Of a stretch of DNA of 64,000 nt, positions 14,292 to 36,000 are shown piece after piece (within the stretch, counting starts at the first letter, position 1; each line of letters starts with the position of its first letter). A model generated the notes under the pieces. The model was not told the origin of the DNA. It did no database searches and worked only from the letters and a program-made list of their open reading frames with translations. Origin of the DNA: Trypanosoma brucei (Eukaryota); NCBI GenBank assembly GCA_000002445.1, contig CM000208.1, positions 1,280,001 to 1,344,000 on the forward strand, given 5' to 3'. Both the position numbers and the translations under genes were made by a program.

Positions 14292-15104
14292 ATGAGCAGT
14301 TCTGAACACGATAGTCGTGTTGCGTACTGTAAGGAGCATAATGTGCATCATCTCTTTGAGCTCATGGCTTCCAGGTTGCTAGTTGAGCGCCCCGAGAACC
14401 CTTTTGAATACCTTCGGGAGTTGCTGGTCACGGTGGAGAACTCCAAGAAGCAAACAGCACATGATCCCACAATGCTTCCGTCGTCGCCATTGGGGGCGAA
14501 GGACAAGCTGACGAAGATCACAATAGGCACATTTGGTATTGAGAATGCCGGCAAAACAACGATCATTTCTGCTTTGGGAGGAAATATTGAGAAGAATCCT
14601 ATGCCTACCGTCGGATTCACTCCTACAAGATTCCAGACGGATAGGTGCGATCTTTGCATCTTCGACCTTGGCGGAGGCGCCAACTTTCGAGGAATTTGGG
14701 TTCACTATTTCCACGACTGTCATGGTTTCATGTTCGTCATCGACTCTGCAGCGGATGATGCGGTTGTGGAGGAATCCCTCAATGCACTTCGCACTGTAGC
14801 GCAGCACAAGCATGTGCGTGGCAAGCCGGTGCTGGTGCTGGCTAACAAAAAGGACTTAAAGAGTAGCAGAGGCGTTGAGATTGTTTCTGAAGGCCTCTTG
14901 GAGGAACTCTTTGGGGATGTTTCTCTCTACCATCTAGTGCCTTCATGTGGCATTGAGGAGGATCCTGAACTGGAGAAGGGCGTTGATTGGCTATTGACGA
15001 AGATACAGAAGGAATATACTCACATTGATAAGTTGGTGGAAAGTCAGACGCTGGAGGTAAAAATGGAGGCGGAACAAAAGAGGAAGAAGTTGCTTGAAGA
15101 ATAG
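14292..15104 (+). CDS. Arf-like small GTPase with an N-terminal Dpy-30/RIIa-type dimerisation/docking motif and a C-terminal coiled coil. Its switch II is atypical, DLGGG in place of the DVGGQ found in Arf proteins.
   Basis: P-loop GIENAGKTT, switch II DLGGGANFRGIW and NKxD motif LANKKDL (shown as read from the sequence). The N-terminal ERPENPFEYLRELL resembles the Dpy-30/RIIa core ERPPNPIEFLASYLL. The C-terminal tail EVKMEAEQKRKKLLEE is coiled-coil-like. Confidence 0.85.
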   Translation: MSSSEHDSRVAYCKEHNVHHLFELMASRLLVERPENPFEYLRELLVTVENSKKQTAHDPTMLPSSPLGAKDKLTKITIGTFGIENAGKTTIISALGGNIEKNPMPTVGFTPTRFQTDRCDLCIFDLGGGANFRGIWVHYFHDCHGFMFVIDSAADDAVVEESLNALRTVAQHKHVRGKPVLVLANKKDLKSSRGVEIVSEGLLEELFGDVSLYHLVPSCGIEEDPELEKGVDWLLTKIQKEYTHIDKLVESQTLEVKMEAEQKRKKLLEE

Positions 15105-16356: not shown

Positions 16357-19300
16357 ATGACTTTAATTCCTCAAAACCCCTACCGAATGAGTTTCAGCAG
16401 ATGTAATAATGAGCGAAAAGCTTCAATTCCCTTGCAACCGACCAACACGAATGGGGGGATCAGTGCTGATAACACTGGTGTAGATCTTAAAGCTCATCGT
16501 GTGACTCCATTCACCACCACATTTGGACGGAGACACACCCTATATGGGGAGACAGAGATACGCGAGGCAAAGGAAACTTTAGCAAAGTTATTTGTGCCAG
16601 TGGCAAAGTTGGGAATGTACCGGCTGCGAAGAAGTAGACTGCACAAAAAGAATTCAGAGCTTCGGAGCTACACTATCGACTCCATTGTTCAGGCATACCG
16701 GAGTTCCAACTCAATAATCTCCACTTGGCCTATGGACGTGCTAACCTTGCTTGCTGAGGGAGCACAGTATCACTACTTAGAAGATGGCGAGGTGATTGTA
16801 TATGCGAGGGAATGGTACTTGTCGACTGGAATTATTGTTGTTCTCTTCGGTGAGGTGCAGGAGACGCTACCAAAATCTGAGAAAAACTTCACACCGAATA
16901 AGACGTCTGGTAACATACGGCACCCTGAGCGTTCCGTTTTATGCGAACAAACCGTTCTCTGTAGGGATTTTGCACCTTCGCGTCTAAAGGCGCACGGTTA
17001 TGCCGATGTAGCAGTAATACCCGCTCGCTGGGTTTGGGATGCCATCAATTACACCTCAATGGAGCCATTTGCTGAGGGGATGCTAGACTCTTTGAGAATG
17101 ACTGTTGCACCATTATGTGAAAGCGTTTTGGAACGAACGTACTTTCCCACCGCGTTGACGCTTCGTCGCAGTTGGCTTTGGTCTTTCTTCAGTGCAGGGG
17201 AGCGAATTCGTCTCGCACGCCTCATGGAGGTGAAGGTGTTTTGCGCTGGCGACACCCTGTTTGGTGAAGGGGACCGTAATCCGTACGTGTACATCATTCG
17301 CCGCGGTGCCGTTCGGGTTGTGGTGTGCAAGGAGCCCATTTTGGACTTTGGCCCCGGCGCAGCCTTCGGCGAGGTGAGTGTCATTTTTGATGAACCACGC
17401 TGCTGCCATGCGATTGCCACGTGTTTATGTGAAGTTTACTGTTTGCACCGTCGTCACATTATGAAGCGACTCAGGAAGAAGGCGCACGTGTGTGATAGCG
17501 TGATTGGAACAGCCCTGAGAAGGCGTGAGCAGTGGTTGGAGGACGCCAAGACAAGGCACGTGATGAGCCTTACTGTTTTGTTAGGAGGCGTCCCCTGTCT
17601 CAGTCAGGCGACAGAAAAGGTCCGAGCGGCCATAGCGGAGAAGGCCAAAACAGTGGTGCTGCCCCCGCGACAAGTGTTATTCAAAAAGGGAACCTTGTGC
17701 GATCATCTTTTCATTGTGGGGCGGGGAACCCTCTTAATGGAAGGTGCTGAAGATACTGTAGCGACTCGTACGTCAACGGGGTTTGTGGGTGAGTTGTTTC
17801 TCCATCCGCATTTGTGGCCCACAGACGTTACCTCCCTCACATCTGTTGATGGCTGGATGTTCCACGTTGATGTAGTGAAGGATGCGCTTGATAGCATAAA
17901 CGCAAGGGAACAGGCAGTTGACATATGCCGTCAGGGGATTGAACTTTATCGCGCTCAGTACGGGCCGGAAAGTGTTATGGAGCCAACCCCTGCACCCCGA
18001 AAGTTGGGTCCCGCGCGTAAAGGCACAACTGCCTTTTCTTCGGGGGCGAAGCAGTCAAATTCACTCCGTCAGAAGGGGCAACCCAGAAGTCCGTCACTTC
18101 CCAGCACGCCAAGGCTTGTAGCGGTAGCGAAGACTACTCCTGTGAAGGAGGAGCCACTGGAGAAGTTTGATTGGAACGCGTATGCAATCGAGGATAAGGT
18201 AGCGCTGCCCTCAGCGGACACGGATGAAAGTGATAAGCGCAGTGAACGGCAGCAGACCGAGCATGTCATTGAGGCTGAACTCGGTGGGCAGGCGGGGAGT
18301 TTGTTGTCCGCTGGTGTAGGGCTAGGAATTAGTGCTATTGACTGCGACTTTTCTGATGAGGTGGATGAGATGCGGCAAATGTTACTTGAGCAGGCCCTTC
18401 TAATACCTTCAAACAGACTACTGTTCTTCCTCAGGCAAATAAATCGCAGCAAGGTTACATTGGTGGTGGACGACGGTGCCGTTGTGACGGGAGAGTGTTC
18501 GTTAGAGACAACCGTGGGTGACGATCTGACGTTCCCCCAGTACGTCTTACCGCCCTCTGTTGTGTACACTTTAGACAATGTGAACACTTATAATGTGGAT
18601 GGCGCGCCATTTAACGGGGAGGACGTGCTAAACGACACCAACCGACAGTTAGCAGACGGAGTCGGTACGACTGCGCACCGACGAGCACGCACTCCCGAAG
18701 TTGCTCTTGTGACACCAGATTTTATGTCAACGTTTCGCTCCACCGATGAAATGGCAAATACAACCTTAAAGGGGCAACAGTTTGGCGGCCTTTCATTGTT
18801 CCTGCGGTCCGGTCGTCCATGTTCGGGGCTCAGTGGTAAGCACCATCTACAGCATTCATCGTCCCTTTATGGGACGCTGCGGCGTAGGAGTCTTAGCGGG
18901 GTGAGCAGAAATTATACTCCTTATCCCCAAACTCCTTTTACGCCTGATGTACACGGTTCGACACAGTACAGTTTCTCTAACATATACACAAGACTCAATA
19001 GCGTGGATTACACACAACAAGCGAAAATCACAGCTTCTGCACTCCAGTCTGCTCTTGATCGTTTTGTGAAACTGGACGACCAAAATTACTTTCAACAAGT
19101 GGTGCGTGTCTGCTTACCAACAGAGGCAGAGCAGCAGTTGATTACGGAAGAGGTTGGTAGTGGTGGTAAGAGTAGCTGTGACTTGATACTACTGCTGATG
19201 CACGTTAGGAAGTGTGAGGGCCTCCAGCTAAGTGACGATATGCAGTACCCTATTGTGAAGGTTTATACCAAGACGCGCGTCCTCATCAGAACGCCAATTA

Positions 19301-21465
19301 TGGAGGATCGTGTGGAACCGGACTGGCCGATTGAGGTGGCCTCTTTTATAACATTTATTCGCCGTGATGCTGACGTCAGCTTTTGCATCTGTGATGCGGG
19401 CCAGGAAGATAAGGTTGAATATACTGCCAACCTGGCCGCAGCTGACTTAGGAGAGAATAGGGGTGTTGGCCTTCGGAAGTTGGTCATGCATCGTGGGGCT
19501 ACGGAATCTAATGATGAAATCAATGAGACCAAAGCCACTATTGAGGTGTGCATGATGGCCGTTACTACTTCCAAGCACCACGCACTGCAGAAGCATCTTG
19601 ATGAGGAGGAGGACGCTTGCAAATCATCTGATGACTTTAGTGCAATCTACCTGCAGGTACTGGGGGTGAAAGGCTTAAAGCATCGTATAGAGGCTGCCGT
19701 CCATATTAGTGTGGAGATGGATGGGAAGACAAAAGAGGTTCTGCGCACCCATAAGATCGCACCCAAAACACGCTCTCCCGCGTGGCCGGGGCAAACCAGT
19801 TTTTGTGTTGCTCAGGGGGACGGTGTAATCAGTTTTGATCTTTTCCATCGCGACACGTTTGTGGCGTCGTACGATACTTCCGTCGACACTCTCGCATTTG
19901 GCGGTACCGGTGTGCAGTGTTTACCTCTCCTTCGCGCTCAGGGGACCGGCGGGGACCCCTATGGCGACTTGTATGTTTCCATTCTTGGAACCAAAACACC
20001 ATGTGGGGAGGAGGACGTCGTGGAGCGACCGTCGAAGTTGCTTGTCGTGCATGTGGAGGCGCTTTCTCTACGCCAAAATCTGGATTTAGAGTTTGTACCT
20101 GATCCATTTGTCATTATCCGGGGCCCCAAAGGGGAGGTAATTATGCGCACCGCAATGAACTTTGGTACGTATGAGGCGAAATGGTCGGAGGAACGTGCTT
20201 CTTGCTTCATCCTTTGCCCCTCGCTCCCCGGTTGCGTCGTAACGTATCACTTGGAGGTGTATGACAACAATGAGTCGAGCAAGATTGGTGAAGCAACAAT
20301 GACGGTTACCGTGAACGGCACAAAACGCAATCGTATGATGCTTGACATTGGGGGAAAGGGACTACTCACAGTGGTGGCTCATTCGTTTCCAATACAAGAT
20401 GTTATCAGCCACAGCCAACCGCCTGGATCAGGTCTTACCAATCACCTCACCGACACCTCCAGCTCTAGTATAGAAGAAGGTTACTTCTTGCAGGTTCATA
20501 TTTGTAGTTGTGAGAGCCTTCAGGGGACTGGGTTTGATGATTTCCAGATTGACCCTGTCGTAACTGCACGGGTTGGACGGAAGCGTATTGTAGTTGCACC
20601 ACTCGTGTCGGGCTGTACGGCACCCCAGTGGAAGTATCCGAAAGCCACTTTTGTCCTTCCGTTTGTCCCTGACGTTCTCAGCCATATCGTTTTGGAGGTT
20701 TGGGACACCAACATCGAGCTATGCGATGTTCTCGGCGTCGCCCGCCTTCCAATGGAAGAGATATGCCGAACTGGAACACACAAATACACTCTGCAGCCAC
20801 ATAAGGATCAAGAGTATGGTCGGCGCAGGGATTTAGGTACCATTGTGGTAAACACTCGGTTCGGTCGCGTAAATGGAGCTGTCGTTTCTAAGGAGTCGCC
20901 CTTGTTCTTTTCAGCGGGCTCTTCAGGCTCAGGTATCTTTCGGTCCCGTTTATTTCCTTCTACGAATAGGGGGCCAAACCTCCCCATCACTCGAGTCCGT
21001 TTGCACATATCCAGCTGCTGCTCTGCCGTATCCGCATGGCCTTTCGACTTTATAAAGGTGACATTAACATGCCTTCATCATGTTTTGCTTGAGGTGCGTA
21101 AATCCTGCAAAGATGAATTCTTCGTCGCATGGTCCGTTGATGATGCGCAAACTATCGTGGACCTTAGGGCCATATACGGACGATCCCTGCGACTCGCTGT
21201 TTCTGGTGGAAAGGAAGAGACTGGACGATTAACAACCCACATTGGCGCCGCGCATTTGCCCTTTTCAACGCTGGCATCAGCGTCCCCGGAGGTTGTCTCT
21301 GTGCGGAGTTTACCACTAGTAGACCAGGCAACTGAGGAACGGAGTAGCGGGAGTAGAAGTGGTCGGCGATGTGTAACTCCGAGTGTTTCAGCGCAGGAAC
21401 CTAGTATAACCGTGTCCCTTCTTGCGCTTGATTCTGACCACTCTGTGAGCTTGGGAAGTGAGTAG
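16357..21465 (+). CDS. Large (1702 aa) protein with two tandem cyclic-nucleotide-binding-like domains followed by several C2-like beta-sandwich domains
   Basis: The first cNMP-binding-like segment is LFGEGDRNPYVYIIRRGAVRVVV...FGEVSVIF and the second is LFKKGTLCDHLFIVGRGTLLMEG...FVGELFL. Three C2-like segments are IYLQVLGVKGLKHRIEAAVHISVEMDGKTKEVLRTHKIAPKTRSPAWPG, LVVHVEALSLRQNLDLEFVPDPFVIIRGPKGEV and FLQVHICSCESLQGTGFDDFQIDPVVTARVGRKRIV...LEVWDTN. The ORF is uninterrupted. PolyY tracts run through 16000-16130 upstream. Confidence 0.8.
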   Translation: MTLIPQNPYRMSFSRCNNERKASIPLQPTNTNGGISADNTGVDLKAHRVTPFTTTFGRRHTLYGETEIREAKETLAKLFVPVAKLGMYRLRRSRLHKKNSELRSYTIDSIVQAYRSSNSIISTWPMDVLTLLAEGAQYHYLEDGEVIVYAREWYLSTGIIVVLFGEVQETLPKSEKNFTPNKTSGNIRHPERSVLCEQTVLCRDFAPSRLKAHGYADVAVIPARWVWDAINYTSMEPFAEGMLDSLRMTVAPLCESVLERTYFPTALTLRRSWLWSFFSAGERIRLARLMEVKVFCAGDTLFGEGDRNPYVYIIRRGAVRVVVCKEPILDFGPGAAFGEVSVIFDEPRCCHAIATCLCEVYCLHRRHIMKRLRKKAHVCDSVIGTALRRREQWLEDAKTRHVMSLTVLLGGVPCLSQATEKVRAAIAEKAKTVVLPPRQVLFKKGTLCDHLFIVGRGTLLMEGAEDTVATRTSTGFVGELFLHPHLWPTDVTSLTSVDGWMFHVDVVKDALDSINAREQAVDICRQGIELYRAQYGPESVMEPTPAPRKLGPARKGTTAFSSGAKQSNSLRQKGQPRSPSLPSTPRLVAVAKTTPVKEEPLEKFDWNAYAIEDKVALPSADTDESDKRSERQQTEHVIEAELGGQAGSLLSAGVGLGISAIDCDFSDEVDEMRQMLLEQALLIPSNRLLFFLRQINRSKVTLVVDDGAVVTGECSLETTVGDDLTFPQYVLPPSVVYTLDNVNTYNVDGAPFNGEDVLNDTNRQLADGVGTTAHRRARTPEVALVTPDFMSTFRSTDEMANTTLKGQQFGGLSLFLRSGRPCSGLSGKHHLQHSSSLYGTLRRRSLSGVSRNYTPYPQTPFTPDVHGSTQYSFSNIYTRLNSVDYTQQAKITASALQSALDRFVKLDDQNYFQQVVRVCLPTEAEQQLITEEVGSGGKSSCDLILLLMHVRKCEGLQLSDDMQYPIVKVYTKTRVLIRTPIMEDRVEPDWPIEVASFITFIRRDADVSFCICDAGQEDKVEYTANLAAADLGENRGVGLRKLVMHRGATESNDEINETKATIEVCMMAVTTSKHHALQKHLDEEEDACKSSDDFSAIYLQVLGVKGLKHRIEAAVHISVEMDGKTKEVLRTHKIAPKTRSPAWPGQTSFCVAQGDGVISFDLFHRDTFVASYDTSVDTLAFGGTGVQCLPLLRAQGTGGDPYGDLYVSILGTKTPCGEEDVVERPSKLLVVHVEALSLRQNLDLEFVPDPFVIIRGPKGEVIMRTAMNFGTYEAKWSEERASCFILCPSLPGCVVTYHLEVYDNNESSKIGEATMTVTVNGTKRNRMMLDIGGKGLLTVVAHSFPIQDVISHSQPPGSGLTNHLTDTSSSSIEEGYFLQVHICSCESLQGTGFDDFQIDPVVTARVGRKRIVVAPLVSGCTAPQWKYPKATFVLPFVPDVLSHIVLEVWDTNIELCDVLGVARLPMEEICRTGTHKYTLQPHKDQEYGRRRDLGTIVVNTRFGRVNGAVVSKESPLFFSAGSSGSGIFRSRLFPSTNRGPNLPITRVRLHISSCCSAVSAWPFDFIKVTLTCLHHVLLEVRKSCKDEFFVAWSVDDAQTIVDLRAIYGRSLRLAVSGGKEETGRLTTHIGAAHLPFSTLASASPEVVSVRSLPLVDQATEERSSGSRSGRRCVTPSVSAQEPSITVSLLALDSDHSVSLGSE

Positions 21466-24571: not shown

Positions 24572-26539
24572 ATGTCTGGCACTAATCACCTCCGTCAGGT
24601 GGTTCCCGCAGCCGTTTACAACCCAATACCTCCTGCACCACCGTTCATGGTGTTTTGCGACCCGTACGCGAAGGTCGCCAACGCTACTGCAAAGTACAGG
24701 AATCAACCGCCAGTCGCACCGAACGCTGCCGCTGTTTTTCAGCAGCAACTCTACAGTTTACCTTTTCATGGTGTTGCTGGGGTTCCCGCCCCTATGCGTG
24801 AAGAAGAGGACGCTGATGGGTCTTTTGAGGTTCACGACAGCTGCCTCAAGGCACCTATTACTGTAGGGCGTCGAGTTGTAATCCCCACTACCGGAAGCCG
24901 TGGCCTTTTCAACTGTGCGCAGCTTCCAAGTAATGGAAACAGTGGTGGTAACTGCAATAACAACTCCAATAGTAACGGGAATGGTGGGAAAAGTTTCGCG
25001 CGAATTTGTGACGCCCATCCCGAGGGAAGGTGTATTTCAGGTGAACAGTGCCCTGACATTCATGTGCAGGCCGAGTACCTAACTGCTCAGCGACAGGAGA
25101 TGATATTCTGGCTTGAAAGTAAGGAACGTGAGTTCCAGAACACACTGCGTGCGGATCCGACCAAGATGTTCCGTGTGTTCTGTGCGGACCTTAAAGAGGC
25201 CGTGGAAGTCCCGATTAGCGCGTTGCAATTCACTAAAGGTCTATACGTGGATCCGTCGGTTCGGGCTCGCCGGGCGCGTGCGGGTCATCAGAACCAGTTC
25301 GCGATGTTAGCCTCGCAGTTACCAACTGCCTGCGGATTGTTTCTTAGCAACCCTTCGCAGTGCAGGTGGGCCCGTTGGTGTAACCAAATTCATGTCGACT
25401 TCACGTGGATGCAGACGAAGAAGAAAGAGTTTGAGTCGTGGTTCAACGAACTGGAGGGACGCTTCAATGCACTTCCCGATGACTACGAGTTTCATGTGCA
25501 CGACCCACAGCTTAAAATGGGTTTAAGAATTCCGAAAGCAAGCATTGCTGTCTTTTCTCGTGGTCTCTTTCAGGGATCGCCGAAGAAGGCGCCGAGTGTC
25601 TGCATGCTCTTTCAACGGGACCGGTGCACAGCAAATGTGTGCTGCAATCAAATTCATGTGATACCGCGGTACTTAGCTTTGCATCGACTTTTGATACAAA
25701 AAGGGGACAGCATTACTGAAGAGGAGCGCGGGAACATTATGAATCAAATGAAGGAGATACTGGAGTCGCAGAAGCGGAGCATGCAGGTTGCGGACGATGG
25801 TGACGCCAACTTTCTCGCAAGGGAGCTAAATCCTCAGGCCGTACCGTACGTCCCACCGCAGCCAACAAGTGTGTGGCGCACGGGGGGCTCTGCGGGTAGC
25901 AGCAGTCCACCACGGACAGCAGCGGCTCCCATTCCTGTTCCCGAGCCCCTTCCAACATTCCGCCAACCACCGCAGTGGAACGAACACTCACCTTCAGCTG
26001 CTGTGGATGGCTCTCCGTACGCTTCCCCTCACCGACGCGTTGAAAGGTGTGGTAGCAGCGGCACGCGGGACTTGCACACCTGTTCCAATCCACTGGAAGA
26101 TTTGATTGAGTTCGTGGATGGGGACAAGTCGCGTACGTCTCTTCTCGCAAGTCAGAGTACAACGAGTCAGGCTAGTCGCAGTTGCAAGCACACCAATAAC
26201 CCTTATGCGTTTGGTGCGAGCTATAAATGTACCGCATCACCCACTTTTGGATGGGTCCAACCTGTTTACAGTGCAGCAAATAGCGGCTCGACACATCCAG
26301 CGAACCGCTCGTGGGGAAGTGGCAGCGTTACAGGCGGGTGTCAACCCATTCGAGTGCGTGTAGGAGGTGGTGGAATTATGGAACATGAACCGTTGGAGCC
26401 CTTTTCTTTGGATCAACACGATATGGGTGCCAGTCCCTTTGAATGTCGCTCACCAGCGCACCGGACGTTGGGATCAAGAACTATAGAAGACCGCCTCAGT
26501 TCTTCGCCAACGTGGAGTGCCACGCAGAAACAGAGATGA
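24572..26539 (+). CDS. CCCH-type zinc-finger protein with three C-x7-9-C-x4-5-C-x3-H fingers. It is a putative RNA-binding regulator with a Gln/Asn/Ser/Pro-rich C-terminal half.
   Basis: The three fingers are CDAHPEGRCISGEQCPDIH, CGLFLSNPSQCRWARWCNQIH and CMLFQRDRCTANVCCNQIH. The last two share a CNQIHV core. The rest of the protein is low-complexity, as is common in kinetoplastid ZC3H proteins. Confidence 0.75.
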   Translation: MSGTNHLRQVVPAAVYNPIPPAPPFMVFCDPYAKVANATAKYRNQPPVAPNAAAVFQQQLYSLPFHGVAGVPAPMREEEDADGSFEVHDSCLKAPITVGRRVVIPTTGSRGLFNCAQLPSNGNSGGNCNNNSNSNGNGGKSFARICDAHPEGRCISGEQCPDIHVQAEYLTAQRQEMIFWLESKEREFQNTLRADPTKMFRVFCADLKEAVEVPISALQFTKGLYVDPSVRARRARAGHQNQFAMLASQLPTACGLFLSNPSQCRWARWCNQIHVDFTWMQTKKKEFESWFNELEGRFNALPDDYEFHVHDPQLKMGLRIPKASIAVFSRGLFQGSPKKAPSVCMLFQRDRCTANVCCNQIHVIPRYLALHRLLIQKGDSITEEERGNIMNQMKEILESQKRSMQVADDGDANFLARELNPQAVPYVPPQPTSVWRTGGSAGSSSPPRTAAAPIPVPEPLPTFRQPPQWNEHSPSAAVDGSPYASPHRRVERCGSSGTRDLHTCSNPLEDLIEFVDGDKSRTSLLASQSTTSQASRSCKHTNNPYAFGASYKCTASPTFGWVQPVYSAANSGSTHPANRSWGSGSVTGGCQPIRVRVGGGGIMEHEPLEPFSLDQHDMGASPFECRSPAHRTLGSRTIEDRLSSSPTWSATQKQR

Positions 26540-26699
26540 TTGTGCCTCGTTACCATGGTGATTTGCTCAGGTGTTTTCTACTTGTACCTCCTTTGAGCTT
26601 TTCCCTGATCCCGCCTTTAAAAATTTTTTTTTCTAAAAATCTTTTCGTTCGTGCATTTTTATCCATTCTTGGTGTTTTTTCTTTTTAAATATCCGTTTC

Positions 26700-29600
26700 T
26701 ATTTTGCATCAGGTGCTTCAATTTTGCTTTATTTTTGCTGTTTGCAACTGCAGGAGTGCTGTAAGGGAGGGGGAAAGAAAAAGAAAAGTAGCATAATATC
26801 TTACTTTAGGAATATAACAGATGGAGGAGAGTTGTTTTTTTTTTCCCCCTCCTCCTCCTGCCTTTTCCCGTTTTTTGTCTTTTTTTTGTCTATTTTTAAC
26901 GAACCAAGTCAGGAAGGAAAACAAAGATAAAGTGATAAATGATTATACTATATTCCTATTTATATATATGTGTGCATATATATATAAATAAGCAAAATTT
27001 CGGGCGATTGTAAGCAAAATATATGAAATTTAATACTTGTAGCTAAACCATTACACAAATAATATAATTTCAAACGACTAAACTGCGAGTAATAATGAAC
27101 CAGACTAATTAAAAGGATATATATTTATTTATATTTATTTATATTGATTTCGTGGGGGAGAAGGGGGCGGGAGGGGGAAAATATAGATAAATATTTAATA
27201 AATTTTTTTTGTTTTAGAGAAGGAAACAATTTCTTTCAACGAAAAGAGGGAGGGGCAAAGGTGGGGTGAAAAAATAAAATTAGTTCATAGGTACAAGCAA
27301 CTAAATAAATTGCAGACCCGAGGTAAAGACAAATAATTTATAGAATACCACAACAACGACCAAATCGTGGTAAAGGTCTAAAGACGGTGAATAAAGGAGA
27401 AAAAGAAAAAGAAAAAGAAAATTGAGAGGGAAAAAAAACAGATGGTGAGGGGAGACAAATAAAACTTTCCTGCCGAGCTAGCTGAAAGGAAGGAAAGGAA
27501 ATGGATAAATTAATAAATAAATAAACGAAAACAATGACAAGAATGAGGGAGACAAAAATAGCGAAAAAAATAATAATAATACAAACTTAATAAGTAAGTA
27601 ACGGCAGAAACACCGCGGAAAAAAAAAAAGAGGAAAAAGGGTCGTTTCAAGGCGTTAAAGGGAAATAAAAGGGGGAAAAAAAACAAAGGAACCCACAAAA
27701 AAAAACAAATATAAGGTAAATGTTCAGATTTGTGTTTATTATGAATAAGTATGCGTTCGTGTGTGTCTGCAATGTAACAACACCAAAGGAAAAAAAAAGT
27801 GCGGGGGAGGTGGAGGAGAGGCGACAAAGAAAGAAAGCAAAAGCGAAAGAAAAAAAGAAAAAAAAGGGGAAAAGAAAGAAAGGGAGAAAGTGAAAACGAA
27901 AAAAAAAGGGAAAAGAAGTACGTGTTTTTCTGCTCGGAGATGATGATATGAAAATGATATGATATAATTTTATATGAAATCTTGACGAGTGGTGTAACTT
28001 AAATGGAAAGGGAAAATGGAAAAGAGAAAAAAAGAGGTCCATTGCATATGTGATGTGTGGCAGGGATGAAGGAAGTTAACTTTTGTTTCCCTTTTCCCAT
28101 CTTTTTTTTTTTACGTTATATCATTTCATATATTCTTAACTTTATGATTTTTGTTAATATTATCATTATCATTACTATCATCATTACCGTGGTTATTAGT
28201 TGATAATTCTCTCTTTCTCTTTCTCTTCTTGCTGCCCTCCTGCTTTTTTTTTCCTCTTTGTTTTTTATTCTTGTTTTGGATTGTTTTCCCCAATGTGTAC
28301 GGGACAGTTTCCTCCAAGTTTGAAAGGAAATGAAATAAATCATAATGATAAAAACAGAAGTAACGAGCGAGAAGAAAAAGGATGATGAAATGAAAAATGA
28401 AAATCACTGATTTGTGCATAAATAATTGATTATACTTTAAGAAAAAAAAAGTATTTGTACAGGCACCAATATATAACACTTATGTTTATAATACATATAT
28501 TTATATGAGACGTGCAGGCTCCTTGATATATGTGTGTGTGTTGACCCACACGTGTGCTAGCATGTTTTTTTTTGGTATTAGTTTCGCATTCGTTTTTTTT
28601 TCTTTCTCTTATAGGCTCCCTTCTGTTTTCGTTTTTGTTTTATTTCGAAACAATTTCTCCCCCCTCATTCCTTCCCATTTTCTAATCCTCTTTGTCAAGC
28701 TTACAACTCATCCTTCCACCTTGTGTGATTATTGTTATAAAAATTATTATTGTTACCGCGTTTACTATCCTTATTATTGATATTGTATTAATACATACCG
28801 TGTTTCCTTCTTTTTTTCTTTTTTTTCTTTTAATTCCGGTGCATGAAGGCCTGCAAACTTTTTTTTGTGGTGATTGTGATGTGACCATCCCTTTGTGCGT
28901 GTGTGTTTTCTTTCATTTGTTTGCAAGGCAGTATTATTATTATTATTATTATTATTTCTCTCTTTTCCTTCAGCTTCTTGTTTGCTGGCTTGGGAATCTC
29001 GCGTAGTTTCTGCTATTTATCATTTTATTTGCTTTGCTGTAGTTTCTTTCTTTCTTTTTTTATCTTTTTTTATCTTTCTTTTTTTTTTTTTAAAAAAGAA
29101 CCTTTTGTTTATTTTGTTGTTGTATTCCGTGGAGGGGGAAGGAGGAACAGAATTGAGTGGTGGAGGAAAAGAAAATGGAAAGAAGAAGGAAAAAAAAAAC
29201 AAAGTGGCGTACGTTCGTATCTGTGCGTTTGTATGTTCGGCCGTTTTCTTTTTCTTTTGTTTTTTTTTGCTCTTTTTTTGTCTTCTTTTTAAAAATTTTT
29301 TTTTGTTTTACCTTTGCATTCTCTGTATTGCTGTTTTGTTTTCCTTTTTCGTTTTTGCTGTTGTCCATTACTCTTTGGTTCCGGTGTTGTGAGCACTGAG
29401 GCGCATGCGGAGATCAAGAAAATATCATGTATACATATATATTAATATATACGTATATTTGAATGTACAGCTATACACACAGGTATGCGTATGTATAATA
29501 CAAACCTGTTTCGGGAAACATATCAGACAAGAAGGTTACATGTATGAATATAAATATAATATATAATATATAAAAATAAATAAATAAATATATACATTGA

Positions 29601-32600
29601 AAGTTTGTACATTTTGCATGCATAAATATGAATCTGCATATGTGAATGAATGCGTGTCTATGTGCGTTTGTGTGTGCACGATTATGTACAAAAATGTATA
29701 GGAAAAATAAAGGGAATGTAAGTGTGTATTGGCATTGCATCATGCCGTCATCATCTTCTCTCATTCCTTATTTCTCTTTTATTTGTGATTTGTGATTTTG
29801 ATTCATTTCTTCTTTGTTTTTTTTTTATTGGTTTGGTTTGCTATCAGTTGTCCGGTTTCGCTTCGTTTACACGCCACCTGAGAACTTCCCCATCTCTCCC
29901 TCCACGACACAAGATAAAAAAAAATAATTATTTGTATGTATGTGTTTCTTTTCTTTTCTTTTCTTTTTCCCCCTCCTTCTTGTTTTATGCGTCGTTCTGC
30001 TTGTCAGGAGTTAGTTTTTTATTTTTATTTTTGTTTTTGTTTTTGTATGACTGTGCTTGTGCTTGTGCTTATGTGTGAAGGAAAATAAAAAAAAGAAGGA
30101 TGAAAATACAAAGAGATGGAGACGGTGATTTGTATGCTTGGAAAGGTATGAAGGGAACAAAAGAGGGAATGTTGAACACACAAAACAAACATAAACACAA
30201 AGGAAAAAAAACGAAATTCTTCAATATTTGTTGTTTATTTAATTGCTTTTTTGTATGTATGTTTGTATGTTTGTTTGTGTGTGTCTTTACCTTTATTATT
30301 ATCTATTTTTTTTTTTTGGTTTTCTCTTTCTCTTCTGTCAACTTTCCTCTCCTGTTGTTTACCGTATTTGTTTGCTTCGGTATTTGTGAGTGCTTGTATA
30401 TGTTTGTGTAGAGGTGATGATGATGATGGTGATGAAAGCAGTTTGGTGTCATTATTGCGTTATAACAATAATAATAATAACAATAATAAGAGCTACAAGT
30501 AAGAAGGAATAGAAGAGAAAGAGAGAAAATGAAATGCTTGTGCTTGTGCTTGTGGTTGTGTTTTTTTTTGCTTTTTGTTTTTTGTTTTTAAATATTATCT
30601 CACGTACACATGAACACTTTACACTTAACTCTGCAAGCAATGGGTGAGATGATGCAAAAGGAAGAAAAAGGATACTAAATTAAGTAAATAAATGCAAATG
30701 AAGGGGAGGGGAGGGGAGGAGGAGGAGTGGGAGGGGAAGGAAAAGGAGAAAAAAAAAAAGAATAATATATACTTGACAACAGTAGCAGCAGCAACATTAG
30801 TTTAGTTAGCGATTCTTTTAACCGTGCTGCGCCCGCACGTTGGTGGCACTCCTTCATTTTTTTTTTTCGCCTTCGGGTCTCTTTCACGCACTGATGTTGC
30901 CACATTTGGTCCGTGTGTCTTTTTGTTTTTTTTTCTTTTTACTTTCAAAGGCGTTTTATCATCGGCTATGACAAAAGTCGGTGTGTTATTTCCTACGACT
31001 GTTTGTGTGACTCCGAACTGTTACTTTCTTCCCATTTCTGATTCCCCTCGCCTTTTACAGTGAGACTTTTTGAAAAAAAATAAACAAAAAACAACAATAT
31101 GTATAATATATTACATGAAAAGTTGATAAAATAAATAAATAAATATATTCATATAACACTTCTCCATATTTTCAAATATTTCCCCTTCCTCTTTTTCTTT
31201 TTATCGTTTCGCGTTTGCTGTATATCTCTTAAGTTTTGAAGAGAATTGGAAGAATGATGATTTTTTTTTTTTAAATATATATATATTTAACGTTGTTGTT
31301 GTTGTTTACATTTTTTTTTCTTTTTTGAAGGGGAGGGGGAAGGGCGTTGCTGCTGCTGCTGCTGTTATTGTCACTTTTGTTGTTATTGTTATTGCCGTCA
31401 CCGGCTCCCTCTTATGACTTGTGGTAATTGAAGGGAAGCTTAACATAAACAACGAAAAAAAAAAGTGAAGCAAAAAACGAAAAAAAAAAGAAAATAAAAC
31501 AAGAAAAAAGAGGGAGAAAAAATGTTTGTTGCGGGTTCTCACCACATTTTTCATTTTATTTTGTTTTTTTTTTAAAAAGAAAAAAATCACTTGATTTCAC
31601 GATACTTCCAGTTTGTTTACTTTTTTTTCTTTTTTTCTCTGTTATTTGATTCCATCACCCCAGAAGGTCCAGGGAATGGGGCAGGGGAAGGGAGGAGAGG
31701 GGTAAGAGTTCTTCTTGAAGGAGGAAACTATGAGAATTTAATTTATTACATTTGTGCGGTTCCTGTTTTTTCTTTTTTTTTCTTTTTTTTTCTTTTCAGG
31801 GAAGGGAGGGGAGGGGAGGGGAAGGAGAATGTTACCGCCACCCAGATATGAAGTAAGGATGCGAGGAAGAGGGAAACATGGCGATGGTGATGATGATGAT
31901 GATTTTTTTTTTTTTAAATCGTGACTTTTATGATAATAATGATAATGGTGGCAGCGTTGGTGCCGTTATGACGAAACGTGACTCGAGCGATATGAAAATA
32001 GCGGTACACAAATGCCGAAGGAGCCAAATGTTTGGTGTGTGTGTTCATATATATTTTGTACGTACGTGTGATCGTGTTCTCTCTTCCTCCATTTTTTCTT
32101 TTAACTTTTTTTCTTTTAGTTTTTTTTGTTTCCAATTTACGCGTATATGTGAGGGGCAAGCACATGTATATATGTACTTGGTAAAGTAAGTGGAGCGTGT
32201 GAAATTGCTTGAATAACGAGAAATTTTGTGTGGCAAAAAAAAAAATAAACAAAATAAAACGAAGTAACAATGGGAAAGTGACAAACTGTACTAACAAGTA
32301 CCTCCAGATTTGTAGTGCGATCCCATTATTGTTCCATTTCTTTCCCCCTTTTTGCTTTTAAATTATTTTTATGTAATGTATATATGCCTGTGTGCTTGTA
32401 CTTTTGTTTGCTTTACTGTTACAGTACTGTGTGAGCAGCTGAAGATTGTGTGAATGAGAGTGTGCATATTTGTGGTGAAGAGGGAAGCAAAGAGACTGTT
32501 ATATTTGTACAAAGTGGGCTGGTCTCCTGCTCTTCCACCTTTTTCTTTTTCTTCATCCGCTCTCTTTTTTTTTTCTTCTCTACTTGAGTTACTGCTCCAC

Positions 32601-33000
32601 CTCTTTTTTTTTTTGAAAAAATTATTCGGGGAAATAATTCACCTTAAGAAATGCTGAAGAGCAACGAACGATAGCAATGAGGATGAGTCCTTTTATATCT
32701 ACTTTTCTTTCTTTTTTTTTCACTTTATATATTCAAAGAGAAGTGTTCACGTGAACTGAACGCTATACTTTTTATGATTGTTTGTTGTCATTCATCCAGT
32801 AGTGAGTGACTTCAAACAACTCGTTTGAATGCCACTTGCCCAAAGACTTTCTACTCTATTTTCAATGCATCAGCGGGGTCACCAGTCAATTCCTGCTTCA
32901 TTAGCTTCCGTTAATTTCTCCACCATTTCTTTCTTTTCTCTTTTCTCTTTTCTTTTTTTTTCTTTTTCCCCCTTCTCTACCGACAATATTTTTAGTTAGA
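26700..33000. repeat. 6.3-kb gene-free low-complexity block with alternating purine-rich and pyrimidine-rich strand segments, homopolymers, G-tracts and tri/tetranucleotide repeats
   Basis: No ORF here has a non-degenerate composition. The + strand is A/G-rich over about 27100-28100 and T/C-rich over about 28100-29400 and about 32500-33000. Motifs include gggaggggaggggagg, (TA)n and (AAT)n. Confidence 0.8.
32905..32998 (+). promoter_or_regulatory. Strong polypyrimidine tract plus AG, a candidate trans-splice acceptor region for the 33088 CDS
   Basis: ctccaccatttctttcttttctcttttctcttttctttttttttctttttcccccttctctacc ... tttttag. Confidence 0.55.
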
Positions 33001-33087
33001 GAAGTATCGGGTTTCACCTTTACCTCCATTCCACACGCCTGGGTGTTTAAAGAGATATAAAAAGAAGAAGAGGGAGTGTAAATAATT

Positions 33088-36000
33088 ATGACTGGAGGCA
33101 ATAGCGGGATCTCTGCTACTGGCGCGGGAAGTGTTGTATTGCTTCCACGCGGAGTGTACGCTACGGTGTTTGAACCAATAAATAGTGCGGAAGAGCAACA
33201 GAAAGTGGCGCTTGAGGACTCCGTTAGACGGCCACTTGACGACCATCAAAAAGCGAACATTTCGTCGATGGCAGGGGCGGCTGGACGTTTTGAAGCGCAG
33301 CGGCGACTGCGTAAGGCAATGGCTGCAAAGGAGGCAACTATGATTCAACTTAAGCAACTTATTAGAGAATATTCGAGTCCAGGTGAGGGACCTAATCGCA
33401 GTAAGGAGCAGCTAAAAATGGTAAATGATAAGGTAACGGGATGTTCTCTAGGTGAAATAAATGGTATACCATCACCAGCGGTAGCACTGGGACATATTGA
33501 AAAAGATATTTCTGTGCATCCAGCCGCTGATTTGGCGTGCGATGCGGAGGTTTTGCGCCTCAAACTTGAGAACGAAAAATTATCTGTGAAGGAAACAGCC
33601 CTTAAAAGGGAACGTGAGCAGCTGGAAAGGCTCGTTGTTGACCTTCGAAAAGAGTTGGAAGCTTCTGGAGATGCCCTCCGTGATCAAACCGAGCTTCTAC
33701 AAACCATACGCATCAGCGAGGGCCGCCACGGGTCACATGTCTTCTTCAAACACAAACCTGAAAAACTGTCGGAGCCCATAACCACTGCGGCCCCATCTGA
33801 AGAGAGGAAAAAGGGAGGTGAGAAGGATGATGAAAATGAGAAGGGGAATAAGGAAGAAGATAAGAAAGAGGAAAAGAAAAAAGATACCATATGTGAAGGG
33901 GATAAGGTGTCTGACATGCTGAAAAGAATAGAGGCTTTGGAGGGACTTCTCGCCCTCGAGGAAAAAAGGCGGGAAGCGGTGGAAAAGCGGTGTGAGGAAC
34001 TTCTGGCGATGTCTTCCGAGAGGAAAGCAGGAGATGAGCCGACTCCTCTTGCAGCAAGGACGGCAGATTGGGGTACCGTTGCGGGTCGCCGCGAGGAGGA
34101 GGGCGGTAAAACTTTAAAGACTGATCCAGCTTGTAAAGAAAATCTTTTTGAACCGGCACCTGCGGTAGAGGACAGCCCGGGGAAAAGCGCGAAGGACGGC
34201 AGGGACACAAATCTCAATCGTGTCATTCGCGTGTTGGTGGAAAAGCACCGTGCTGCACGGGTTGTGTGGACGAGGCGTGAGAAGGAGTTCAAGCGGTACA
34301 CGCAAGTACTTGAGTCCGTCATGACACGAATGGAGCGTGGTCTCCCTGCCGAGGAACCAGGCAAAGCAGCTTTATTTAATCTCACCGTATCCCTTGTTGC
34401 ATGTGAGAACCTACTTAACCGGCGTAACAATGGTGCTCTTTTTATTGATCCCTTTGTTGTGCTCTATTCACCAATTGGCGAAAAGGCACTTGAGACTCTG
34501 CCCCGTGAGGACACCAATTGCCCTCAGTTCACAAATGCTGGGGACACTGTTACCTTCAAAGTGGTGAGGGGTTTACCGTGGAGTCTCACATTTGAGGTCT
34601 ATTCAAGAGGTGTAAACAATACTGGTCTCTTTTTGGGACAGGCAAAAGTACCTGTTGAGTCTTTCTTGGAGGACGTTGCAGTAGACAAACGTTTCCAACG
34701 AAAGGTAAGGCTTTGTCCACGCGACCGTGAACCGGATAGTGAAGTTATTCAAAACGCTCATCGCCTAGGTTCCATTATTTTCACTGCATGTATTTCGGTG
34801 GTGGGGAGGGATCGAAGAAGTTCTTCTATTCCTGCGGTTTCTCCACGCAACTCTGCCATCACCTCCAGTGGTTGCCGGCGGTCGGTGCTCGACGTGAAGC
34901 GGTCAATGGAAGCTGAACATTATGATACCGTCAACGTCGACGTGAGTTGTAGTGCAGGGGAAGAGGCGAGGTGTTGCTCTCCTGCCGACGCTGTAATTCT
35001 ACGCGTGCTGAGTGCTAAAGGTGTTATAAAGCGTCCTTCGGGCGTGTATTCAAATCCTTACGTTGTAGCGTTCGACAGTGGCACCGGTGAGGAGTTGTTG
35101 CACACGCCACCCGTTATGGCATCATCCAACCCTCAGTGGGAGCATTCGGCGCAGGGTAGATGTATAATCCGTCCCGATCACGCGAGAGGGTCTGTCACCT
35201 TCCGCGTATATGACCACGACCAAGAGGGGAAGGACCGGTTCCTGGGCGAAGCTCATCTTCCAAAACGTCTGATATTTTCCGGGAAGGAGTTGCATGAACT
35301 GAAACTAGAGCCACGAAGGGATGAATCGTTAGAGTACATTCGCCGCAAACAGCACAAACTTGGAAAGTTGGTGGTTCAGTGCGTCCGTAAGAATGCTAGG
35401 AGTGAGGGTGAAAGAAGCCGAACCCAGTCCGGGGGAAGTGTGTGCAGGTCAGCACCTTATCCTGGAGCGGTATGTGGATTCACCGAGTCATCAAAGATTC
35501 TCCACGAGGATTCTGTTACAAATTGCAAAACAATTTTATTGGACGCTTTGCCTATTCGGGTTACAGTCGAGGCATGCAACGGACTCTGCATTGATCGGTC
35601 GGGTGGATATGTAGTGGTGTGTATTGTTTCACCTAATCTGGTGGAGTACATGACCTCCGCAGTATGTGGGACAGCCGACCCCTCGTGGACCGGCACGGAC
35701 AACTCCGCAACGTTTTCTGTGCACCCTCTAAGCAGTGGCGCCATCCAATTTCATGTAATGGCTCAAGATAGAAAATGCGGCTACGGTGGAAGAATCGTCG
35801 GCTGTGCACAAATATCCACTCTGGACCTCTTCCGTCGAGGGTTTGGCAGGAAGAAACTACAGCTTGGAGGCCCTCCAGATCGCGCGGATATCTTACGAAG
35901 GCAAAGGCAGTCGGGTCAGGGGACGATCACTGTGTTTTTTTCGCTTCTTTCCTCTCCCCCAGTGCGTGGTGAAGATGAAGTCACTTGCTCTCAGGAAAAA

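What the first reader, a model, noticed from the sequence alone, without database searches (positions are those of the whole stretch)
16357..21465. 1702-aa protein joining tandem cyclic-nucleotide-binding domains to a string of C2 domains
Two cNMP-binding-like domains (aa ~280-370 and ~430-510) are followed by at least three C2-like beta-sandwich segments. This architecture is not that of PKA regulatory subunits, Epac or CNG channels. A second multi-C2 protein (33088..36495) lies two genes downstream. C2 arrays usually mediate Ca2+/lipid or microtubule-doublet association. The combination may therefore be a cyclic-nucleotide-responsive membrane or cytoskeleton tether. That would be relevant to flagellar cAMP signalling in trypanosomes, which lack canonical cAMP-responsive PKA.
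Basis: partly seen in the sequence, partly recalled or inferred. Interest (0 to 1): 0.5.

Follow-up and report, generated by a model that had tools for sequence, protein, structure and literature searches.

The report
Known trypanosome flagellar protein cAMP-BP1

Summary
ORF 16357..21465 (+) encodes a 1702-aa protein with two Pfam cNMP-binding domains (aa 293-372 and 433-511) and a C-terminal C2 array. The sequence is identical to T. brucei TREU927 XP_822769 (Q38B79). Neighbours ZC3H32 and TZP125 place it at Tb927.10.5240. That gene was characterised in 2024 as cAMP-BP1 (Zhou, Nguyen and Li, JBC, PMC11555346). The paper reports 2 CNB and 5 C2 domains. [quoted passage not shown] Knockdown gives epimastigote-like cells. 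cAMP binding was not testable there. My additions are modest. CNB1 keeps the cassette Glu in 20/20 and Arg in 17/20 family members. CNB2 lacks the Arg in all 20. A third, degenerate CNB-like module probably lies at aa ~110-245. No C2 module has the full set of five Ca2+-ligand Asp (C2-4 has 4 plus Asn; C2-1, C2-2 and C2-5 have 2 or fewer). The C2 array has only 28 matches among 1.84 billion representative proteins, and all named family members are kinetoplastids. Novelty: already known. Interest: low to moderate.

The parts
16357..21465 (+). Complete ORF of cAMP-BP1 (Tb927.10.5240), 1702 aa plus stop
   Evidence: Exact sequence match to XP_822769.1 / Q38B79 of T. brucei brucei TREU927 on a 4.05-Mb contig. 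Gene ID from PMC11555346 and from synteny with ZC3H32 and TZP125.
16684..17091 (+). CNB0: probable third, degenerate CNB-like domain (aa ~110-245). Its cassette-equivalent 'LCEQTVLCRDFAPS' (aa 195-208) has no Gly and no Arg.
   Evidence: No Pfam hit in T. brucei. In the AF2 model its secondary-structure order matches CNB1: N-terminal helices, beta strands, a short helix, a beta hairpin and two helices. hhalign with 19-20-sequence profiles gives E 3.5e-4 against CNB1 and 9.8e-5 against CNB2, in register over 105-111 columns. cNMP_binding is the only Pfam hit, below threshold (17.7-22.1 bits), in 5 of 10 diverse members. Foldseek alignments to four-CNB Plasmodium PKG span 410-458 of 476 residues.
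17233..17472 (+). CNB1: canonical cyclic-nucleotide-binding domain (Pfam core aa 293-372; full domain with helices aa ~262-397)
17365..17406 (+). Phosphate-binding cassette of CNB1, FGEVSVIFDEPRCC (aa 337-350), with Glu339 and Arg348
   Evidence: Glu is kept in 20/20 and Arg in 17/20 family members. Ser stands at the position where kinetoplastid PKA-R has Glu.
17653..17889 (+). CNB2: Arg-less CNB domain (Pfam core aa 433-511; full domain aa ~400-535). Cassette VGELFLHPHLWPTD (aa 477-490; nt 17785-17826).
   Evidence: Pfam 29.4 bits against a cut-off of 27.5. hhalign CNB1 against CNB2: probability 98.5%, E 3e-15. Arg is absent in 20/20, while 'GE..PH.W' is conserved.
17989..19176 (+). Linker of ~400 aa (aa 545-940), partly low-complexity, with several conserved blocks and no recognised domain
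   Evidence: No Pfam hit. Conserved blocks appear in the consensus. Mean identity within Trypanosoma is 46%. This region was not modelled.
19183..19566 (+). C2-1 (aa 943-1070): eight-stranded beta-sandwich with 2 of 5 canonical Ca2+-ligand Asp in T. brucei. It was essential in the published rescue assay.
   Evidence: AF2 model. No Pfam hit. Ligand table. Deletion phenotype in PMC11555346.
19642..19995 (+). C2-2 (aa 1096-1213): C2 with 2 of 5 ligand Asp and a conserved Lys at ligand position 1. It was partly required in the rescue assay.
   Evidence: Pfam C2 17.6 bits. AF2. Ligand table. Rescue data.
20035..20394 (+). C2-3 (aa 1227-1346): C2 with 'PDPFV' and 'YDNNE' loops, giving 3 Asp plus Asn
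   Evidence: Pfam C2 15.4 bits. A profile hit to the rice C2 protein 4rj9 aligns PDPFV with SDPYV. AF2. Ligand table.
20482..20883 (+). C2-4 (aa 1376-1509): the best C2 match, with 4 Asp plus Asn at ligand positions, invariant in seven Trypanosoma sequences. It is the most conserved module within Trypanosoma (75%).
   Evidence: Pfam C2 27.0 bits, E 5.4e-6. AF2. Ligand table. Conservation.
20992..21426 (+). C2-5 (aa 1546-1690): divergent C2-like sandwich with 1 of 5 ligand Asp
   Evidence: AF2 model only. No Pfam hit. Ligand table.

Best explanation
This is the T. brucei gene for cAMP-BP1 (Tb927.10.5240), a protein known so far only from kinetoplastids. [quoted passage not shown] Its loss shortens the new FAZ, breaks the flagellar connection and produces epimastigote-like cells. 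Deleting CNB1, CNB2 or C2-1 abolishes function, deleting C2-2 weakens it, and deleting C2-3, C2-4 or C2-5 has no effect in procyclic culture. Shown here by computation: the N-terminal half is probably three tandem CNB-like modules, of which only the middle one (CNB1) has a canonical phosphate-binding cassette. The C-terminal half is five C2 sandwiches, none with a complete Ca2+ site. Inferred: CNB1 binds cAMP made by adenylate cyclases at the flagellar tip, and the degenerate CNB0 and CNB2 pass that change on to the rest of the protein or act as docking surfaces. In this view, the Ca2+-ligand-poor C2-1 and C2-2 anchor the protein to membrane or to FLAM3 and cytoskeletal partners without needing Ca2+. 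That would make tip tethering and FAZ elongation sensitive to cAMP. I put the cAMP-binding step at about 0.5 and the regulatory consequence at about 0.3.
Against: cAMP binding has never been demonstrated, because the authors' cAMP-agarose assays were non-specific. The gene is not among CARP1-11 from the RNAi screens for resistance to raised cAMP. The CNB1 cassette departs from the PKA consensus at four non-ligand positions: Ser for Ala, Val for Leu, and Cys-Cys after the Arg. Three lineages have lost the Arg. The T. cruzi orthologue TcCC2CP showed a vesicle-like rather than flagellar pattern. CNB0 rests on sub-threshold sequence signals and on a model that could not be searched as an isolated domain.
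Confidence: 0.85

Rival explanations
1. The CNB modules are ligand-free pseudo-receptors. They would serve only as folded scaffolds or protein-protein interfaces, for example for FLAM3 or flagella-connector proteins, and the protein would be a purely structural component that cAMP does not regulate.
For: Two of the three CNB-like modules lack the cassette Arg. CNB2 is essential even without it. The Arg of CNB1 is lost in Phytomonas and in two unnamed lineages, yet the protein persists there. The gene is absent from the CARP screens. No binding data exist.
Against: The CNB1 cassette Glu and Arg are kept across very divergent members (20/20 and 17/20). That is hard to explain without selection on the ligand site. 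CARP1 has a similar layout of one canonical and two degenerate CNBs and does bind cAMP.
Confidence: 0.3
2. One or more of the CNB modules bind a ligand other than cAMP, such as a purine nucleoside (as in trypanosomatid PKA-R) or another small molecule. The conserved 'GE..PH.W' pocket of CNB2 would be the candidate site.
For: Kinetoplastid PKA-R shows that CNB pockets lacking Arg can switch ligand (PMC6440977). The CNB2 cassette is non-canonical but strongly conserved in all 20 sequences, and CNB2 is essential.
Against: Neither CNB1 nor CNB2 has the PKA-R signature Glu at the Ala202-equivalent position. CNB1 has Ser and CNB2 has Phe or Cys. The Arg-equivalent position of CNB2 varies (T/A/M/G/S/F), which argues against a specific contact there. 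No ligand data exist.
Confidence: 0.1
3. The protein is mainly a Ca2+-regulated membrane-trafficking or membrane-docking factor, as the label 'five calcium-binding C2 domains' implies. The flagellar phenotype would then be secondary.
For: It has five C2 folds. C2-4 keeps 4 Asp plus Asn at ligand positions, invariant in Trypanosoma, and C2-3 keeps 3 Asp plus Asn. C2-3 and C2-4 are among the best-conserved modules in Trypanosoma (64% and 75%). TcCC2CP shows a vesicular pattern in T. cruzi.
Against: No module has all five Asp, and C2-1, C2-2 and C2-5 have 2 or fewer. The functionally required C2-1 and C2-2 are the ligand-poor ones, while C2-3, C2-4 and C2-5 are dispensable in procyclic cells. The T. 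brucei protein localises to discrete cytoskeletal foci.
Confidence: 0.15

Closest known systems
T. brucei cAMP-BP1, Tb927.10.5240 (Zhou, Nguyen and Li, J Biol Chem 2024; PMC11555346)
   Same: It is the same gene. The sequence is identical to the TREU927 protein. The published description of two CNB and five C2 domains, with Glu and Arg in CNB1 and no Arg in CNB2, agrees with my results.
   Different: Nothing differs in sequence. My analysis adds a probable third degenerate CNB-like module upstream. It also finds that the 'calcium-binding' label in the abstract is not supported by the ligand residues of most modules.
T. cruzi TcCC2CP, TcYC6_0079900 (bioRxiv 10.1101/2023.07.09.548290)
   Same: It appears to be the orthologue. 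The T. cruzi family member found here is ~50% identical over 96% of the length, with the same CNB plus C2 architecture. The preprint's 5076-bp gene (1691 codons plus stop) corresponds to that 1691-aa protein. It could not be knocked out.
   Different: It is reported as vesicle- or endomembrane-like in epimastigotes rather than at a flagella connector or FAZ tip. InterPro saw only three C2 domains.
T. brucei CARP1, Tb927.11.16210 (PMC10354285)
   Same: It is a trypanosome protein with three tandem CNB domains, of which only the first has a canonical cassette. It is a precedent that such a module binds cAMP (EC50 ~30 nM).
   Different: CARP1 is 705 aa, has no C2 array, and was recovered in screens for resistance to raised cAMP. 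cAMP-BP1 was not. In cAMP-BP1 the canonical domain is the middle one of the three.
PKA regulatory subunits and PKG (tandem CNB-A/CNB-B)
   Same: They are the best sequence and fold matches for the CNB region: yeast Bcy1 at 4e-17, and Plasmodium PKG at Foldseek E 3e-23 over ~450 columns.
   Different: cAMP-BP1 has no kinase domain, no RIIa docking domain and no conserved inhibitor site. CNB1 does not carry the nucleoside-binding substitutions of kinetoplastid PKA-R.
Multi-C2 tethers (extended synaptotagmins, ferlins, MCTPs) and ciliary C2 proteins (CEP120, TZP125)
   Different: cAMP-BP1 has no SMP, DysF or FerA domain detected by Pfam. Sequence similarity to any solved C2 is below phmmer detection. 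Its Ca2+ sites are incomplete.

Membership tests
cAMP-BP1 / CC2CP orthologous group of kinetoplastids | Sequence identity with Tb927.10.5240 and its chromosomal position next to ZC3H32 (Tb927.10.5250) and TZP125 (Tb927.10.5260) | tested here: met
   Exact match to XP_822769/Q38B79. The downstream 655-aa ORF fits the 72-kDa ZC3H32. The 1135-aa multi-C2 ORF is EAN77943, two accessions after EAN77941, and Tb927.10.5260 is cited as TZP125.
cAMP-BP1 / CC2CP orthologous group of kinetoplastids | N-terminal tandem CNB domains followed by a C-terminal array of five C2 domains | tested here: met
   The architecture is kept in every distant member tested.
Cyclic-nucleotide-binding domain (Pfam PF00027) | Profile score above the Pfam gathering threshold (27.5 bits) | tested here: met
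   CNB1 scores 54.2 bits and CNB2 scores 29.4 bits. CNB0 is not detected in T. brucei and is sub-threshold (17.7-22.1 bits) in 5 of 10 relatives.
Cyclic-nucleotide-binding domain (Pfam PF00027) | Eight-stranded beta-roll with a cassette helix, flanked by helices | tested here: met
Functional cAMP/cGMP receptors (PKA-R, Epac, CRP, CARP1 CNBD-A) | Cassette Glu (contacts ribose 2'-OH) and Arg (contacts phosphate) | tested here: met
   Met for CNB1 only: Glu339 and Arg348, conserved 20/20 and 17/20. Not met for CNB2 (Arg 0/20) or for CNB0.
Functional cAMP/cGMP receptors (PKA-R, Epac, CRP, CARP1 CNBD-A) | Measured, competable binding of cyclic nucleotide | not testable with these tools
   The published attempt failed for technical reasons. 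No other dataset mentioning the gene was found.
PKA regulatory subunit | N-terminal dimerisation/docking domain, an inhibitor (pseudo)substrate site before CNB-A, and exactly two CNBs | tested here: not met
   No RIIa hit. The RRHT at aa 58-61 is not conserved in Trypanosoma. The protein has three CNB-like modules plus about 1150 further residues.
Nucleoside-binding kinetoplastid PKA-R type CNB | Ala202-equivalent changed to Glu, and cassette Arg changed to V/T/A/N (PMC6440977) | tested here: not met
   CNB1 has Ser and Arg. CNB2 has Phe or Cys and no Arg.
C2 domain (Pfam PF00168) | Profile score above threshold and an eight-stranded beta-sandwich fold | tested here: met
Ca2+-dependent C2 domains (synaptotagmin / PKC-alpha type) | Five acidic ligands: two in loop 1 (D..G.SDPYV) and three in loop 3 (V.D.D.....D.IG) | tested here: not met
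   Asp counts in T. brucei are C2-1 2/5, C2-2 2/5, C2-3 3/5 plus Asn, C2-4 4/5 plus Asn and C2-5 1/5. Positions were assigned by motif, so this is an inference. Partial Ca2+ binding by C2-4 is not excluded.

The most novel reading that the evidence does not exclude
cAMP-BP1 is a genuine cAMP effector built into the tip of the growing flagellum. cAMP from tip-localised adenylate cyclases would bind CNB1 and, through the two degenerate CNB-like modules, switch the C2-mediated tether with FLAM3. FAZ elongation, and with it the trypomastigote-to-epimastigote shape change, would then be under cAMP control. This would be one of the few cAMP effectors known in trypanosomes, whose PKA does not respond to cAMP, and the first to be part of a cytoskeletal structure.
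Probability: 0.3. Interest if true: 0.7.

Novelty: already known. Interest (0 to 1): 0.25.

Why it matters
Trypanosome PKA does not respond to cAMP, and few cAMP effectors are known in these parasites (PMC10354285, PMC6440977). A CNB protein at the flagellar tip and FAZ tip is therefore a plausible missing link between flagellar cAMP signalling and cell morphogenesis. That idea, the domain architecture and the localisation are already published (PMC11555346), so the scan finding adds nothing new in itself. The present analysis adds sharper targets for the one open experiment. Glu339 and Arg348 of CNB1 are the conserved ligand residues to mutate. A construct should start before aa ~100 so that it includes the probable third CNB-like module. 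C2-3 and C2-4, not C2-1 or C2-2, are the only candidates for Ca2+ binding.

Tried and rejected
- phmmer of the C2 array against all PDB sequences gave no match.
- A C2-4 profile against PDB gave only a chance hit. A C2-3 profile gave one weak C2 hit, 4rj9, at E 0.033. Residue-level alignment to a solved Ca2+-bound C2 was therefore not possible, and ligand positions were assigned by motif.
- hhalign of CNB0 against CNB1 and CNB2 using only the 10-11 close orthologues was negative, with probabilities of 0.2-2.4%. It became suggestive only with the wider 19-20-sequence profiles.
- The afdb50 fold library was unavailable.
- Word-indexed homologue searches, with a single sequence and with a profile, returned only 11-12 proteins. 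The exhaustive HMMER search was needed to find the wider family.
- Paralogy between cAMP-BP1 and the neighbouring TZP125 was considered and rejected as a meaningful link. BLASTP gave E 0.002 over 49-116 residues.
- A PKA-R-like inhibitor site (RRHT, aa 58-61) was considered and rejected as a conserved feature.
- Literature searches for the gene ID and for the name found only the 2024 paper and one citing paper.
Full report
**Observation**

The + strand ORF 16357..21465 encodes 1702 aa. Pfam scores the whole protein at E 5.1e-21 for cNMP_binding (two stretches) and E 1.3e-14 for C2 (three stretches). Both are above the curated cut-offs.

Scanned by segment:
- CNB1, aa 293-372: 54.2 bits.
- CNB2, aa 433-511: 29.4 bits, against a cut-off of 27.5.
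- C2 matches at aa ~1099-1168 (17.6 bits), 1235-1319 (15.4 bits) and 1378-1470 (27.0 bits).
- Nothing at aa 91-260, 541-1090 or 1511-1702.

The ORF at 33088..36495 is also a multi-C2 protein (C2 E 2e-35, four stretches).

**Identity**

The protein is identical, residue for residue, to T. brucei brucei TREU927 XP_822769.1 / EAN77941 / Q38B79, on a 4,054,025-bp contig. The window is a one-strand gene array typical of a trypanosome polycistron.

The 655-aa ORF at 24572..26539 fits ZC3H32 (Tb927.10.5250), a 72-kDa protein. The 1135-aa multi-C2 ORF is EAN77943. Tb927.10.5260 is cited as the transition-zone protein TZP125. The finding's ORF is therefore Tb927.10.5240.

**What is already published**

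Zhou, Nguyen and Li (J Biol Chem 2024, PMC11555346) named Tb927.10.5240 cAMP-BP1. They report:
- Two CNB domains and five C2 domains (two found by SWISS-MODEL, three more by AlphaFold).
- CNB1 has the cassette Glu and Arg, and CNB2 lacks the Arg.
- The protein localises to flagella connector zone 1 and to the new FAZ tip.
- RNAi gives short new FAZs, detached new-flagellum tips and epimastigote-like cells.
- The protein is in close proximity to FLAM3, and the two depend on each other for localisation at the connector.
- Deleting CNB1, CNB2 or C2-1 abolishes rescue. Deleting C2-2 partly abolishes it. Deleting C2-3, C2-4 or C2-5 leaves rescue intact.
- cAMP binding could not be tested because the cAMP-agarose beads bound proteins non-specifically.

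The T. cruzi orthologue, TcCC2CP, appears essential in epimastigotes and shows a vesicle-like pattern (bioRxiv 10.1101/2023.07.09.548290). Searches for the gene ID and the protein name found no further functional work.

**Structure checks made here**

I ran AlphaFold2 with an 11-orthologue alignment.
- aa 85-560 gave pLDDT 78.9.
- aa 935-1702 gave pLDDT 71.4. This model has five eight-stranded sandwiches at aa 943-1070, 1096-1213, 1227-1346, 1376-1509 and 1546-1690.

This independently confirms the published count of five C2 domains.

**Phosphate-binding cassettes**

An exhaustive HMMER search with the C2 array against 1.84 billion representative proteins found only 28 matches. About 14 of them are collinear family members. 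All nine that I scanned keep N-terminal cNMP_binding domains. The named ones are Leishmania and Strigomonas.

In a 20-sequence alignment:
- The CNB1 cassette (T. brucei FGEVSVIFDEPRCC, aa 337-350) keeps Glu in 20/20 and Arg in 17/20. The Arg is lost in Phytomonas and in two unnamed lineages.
- The CNB2 cassette (VGELFLHPHLWPTD) has no Arg in any sequence but conserves 'GE..PH.W' throughout.

Kinetoplastid PKA-R switched to nucleoside ligands by changing Ala202 to Glu and the Arg to V/T/A/N (PMC6440977). CNB1 has Ser and Arg at those positions, so it does not show that switch. CNB2 has Phe or Cys and no Arg, so it is neither canonical nor PKA-R-like.

**A probable third CNB-like module**

aa ~110-245 is conserved across the whole family. 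Four lines of evidence suggest it is a degenerate CNB:
- In the AF2 model its order of secondary-structure elements matches CNB1: three N-terminal helices, beta strands, a short helix where the cassette helix sits, a beta hairpin and two helices.
- Profile-profile comparison was negative with close orthologues only. With 19-20 diverse sequences it gave full-length, in-register alignments to CNB1 (E 3.5e-4, 105 columns) and CNB2 (E 9.8e-5, 111 columns).
- Scanned alone, this module from 5 of 10 diverse members hits PF00027 as the only Pfam family (E 1.5e-4 to 3.5e-3). Three of the five hits span nearly the whole profile, but all are below the cut-off.
- Foldseek's best matches to the 476-residue model are Plasmodium PKGs, which have four tandem CNBs. 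Those alignments span 410-458 columns at E ~1e-23. Two-CNB PKA-R subunits give ~270-310 columns at E ~1e-17.

I regard this 'CNB0' as likely but not proven. It has no cassette Gly or Arg in T. brucei. The layout of one canonical and two degenerate CNBs recalls CARP1, which binds cAMP with an EC50 of about 30 nM (PMC10354285).

**C2 calcium sites**

I mapped the five canonical acidic ligand positions by motif: loop 1 'D..G.SDPYV' and loop 3 'V.D.D.....D.IG'. This mapping rests on established knowledge of C2 domains and is an inference. Counts for T. brucei:

| Module | Asp at ligand positions |
|---|---|
| C2-1 | 2/5 |
| C2-2 | 2/5 (conserved Lys at position 1) |
| C2-3 | 3/5 plus Asn |
| C2-4 | 4/5 plus Asn, invariant in seven Trypanosoma sequences |
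| C2-5 | 1/5 |

No module has a complete site. The two modules needed for function in the published rescue assay (C2-1, C2-2) are ligand-poor. The phrase 'five calcium-binding C2 domains' is therefore not supported at the residue level.

C2-4 (75% identity) and C2-3 (64%) are among the best-conserved modules within Trypanosoma, although they are dispensable in procyclic culture. This suggests a role that was not assayed.

**Mechanism**

- *Shown by others:* a structural and regulatory role at the flagella connector and FAZ tip together with FLAM3.
- *Shown here by computation:* three CNB-like modules, one of them canonical, followed by five mostly Ca2+-ligand-poor C2 modules, in a family known so far only from kinetoplastids.
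- *Inferred:* CNB1 binds cAMP (probability about 0.5), and this modulates tethering and FAZ elongation (about 0.3).

The rival readings are pseudo-receptor scaffolds, a non-cAMP ligand for CNB2, and a Ca2+-regulated trafficking role. Each is set out with its evidence in the rival-explanations section.

**Context**

The other genes in the window are unrelated: TPR-DnaJ, TFB2, an Arf-like GTPase, ZC3H32, TZP125, two kinases, a DEAH helicase, NifU, eIF6, an RNase III-like protein and a dynein heavy chain. Similarity between cAMP-BP1 and TZP125 is weak (E 0.002), so their proximity carries no functional weight.

**Verdict**

The feature is already known, and interest is low to moderate. The unresolved point is still the one the 2024 paper left open: whether the protein binds cAMP.

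Noticed in passing
window 33088..36495 (+): The 1135-aa multi-C2 protein is EAN77943, i.e. Tb927.10.5260, cited as the transition-zone protein TZP125. A distant homologue (P0038, E 7e-41) shows repeated C2 units that end in 'L.PREKEND....LGTIT'. The C2-4 tail of cAMP-BP1, 'LQPHKDQEYGRRRDLGTIVV', resembles this, hinting at a shared C2 subtype.
   Followed up: partly
window 26540..33087: About 6.5 kb of AT-rich sequence (GC 0.32-0.41) lies between ZC3H32 and TZP125, with no ORF longer than 165 aa. It is much longer than the other gaps in the window. It is presumably a long UTR or intergenic region.
   Followed up: no
window 24572..26539 (+): The 655-aa ORF fits ZC3H32 (Tb927.10.5250), a 72-kDa CCCH zinc-finger mRNA-binding protein. 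Pfam gives only a weak Torus (CCCH) hit.
   Followed up: partly
window 53629..64000 (+), runs off the end: An open frame of at least 3457 codons encodes a dynein heavy chain (DHC_N2, AAA_6, AAA_7, AAA_8, AAA_9 and the MT stalk).
   Followed up: partly
window 16357..16683 (aa 1-109 of cAMP-BP1): A conserved basic helix, 'P..V..R.VLR.R+.+RW' (aa ~80-100), precedes CNB0 across the whole family. An RRHT site at aa 58-61 resembles a PKA consensus site. It is not conserved in Trypanosoma, but an RRxS motif recurs at the same place in Leishmaniinae.
   Followed up: partly
window 17989..19176 (aa 545-940, linker): Several strongly conserved blocks sit in an otherwise low-complexity linker, for example 'SA.DCDFS...DE.Q..L.EQ..L.P', 'FLRQIN.SKVTLV.DD' and 'AL.SALDR.VKLDDQ.YFQ..VRVCLP'. 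They have no Pfam match and may be partner-binding sites.
   Followed up: no
window 17140..17961 (CNB1-CNB2), PDB hits: The CNB region also matches PCR12 of Toxoplasma (9ya0, 2736 aa; E 2.4e-8), which is another protein carrying tandem CNB domains. A CNB-bearing chain of the bovine sperm doublet-microtubule 96-nm repeat (9fqr) appears among the Foldseek matches.
   Followed up: no
window 14292..15104 (+): An Arf-family small GTPase (Pfam Arf E 3.5e-28) lies immediately upstream of cAMP-BP1.
   Followed up: no
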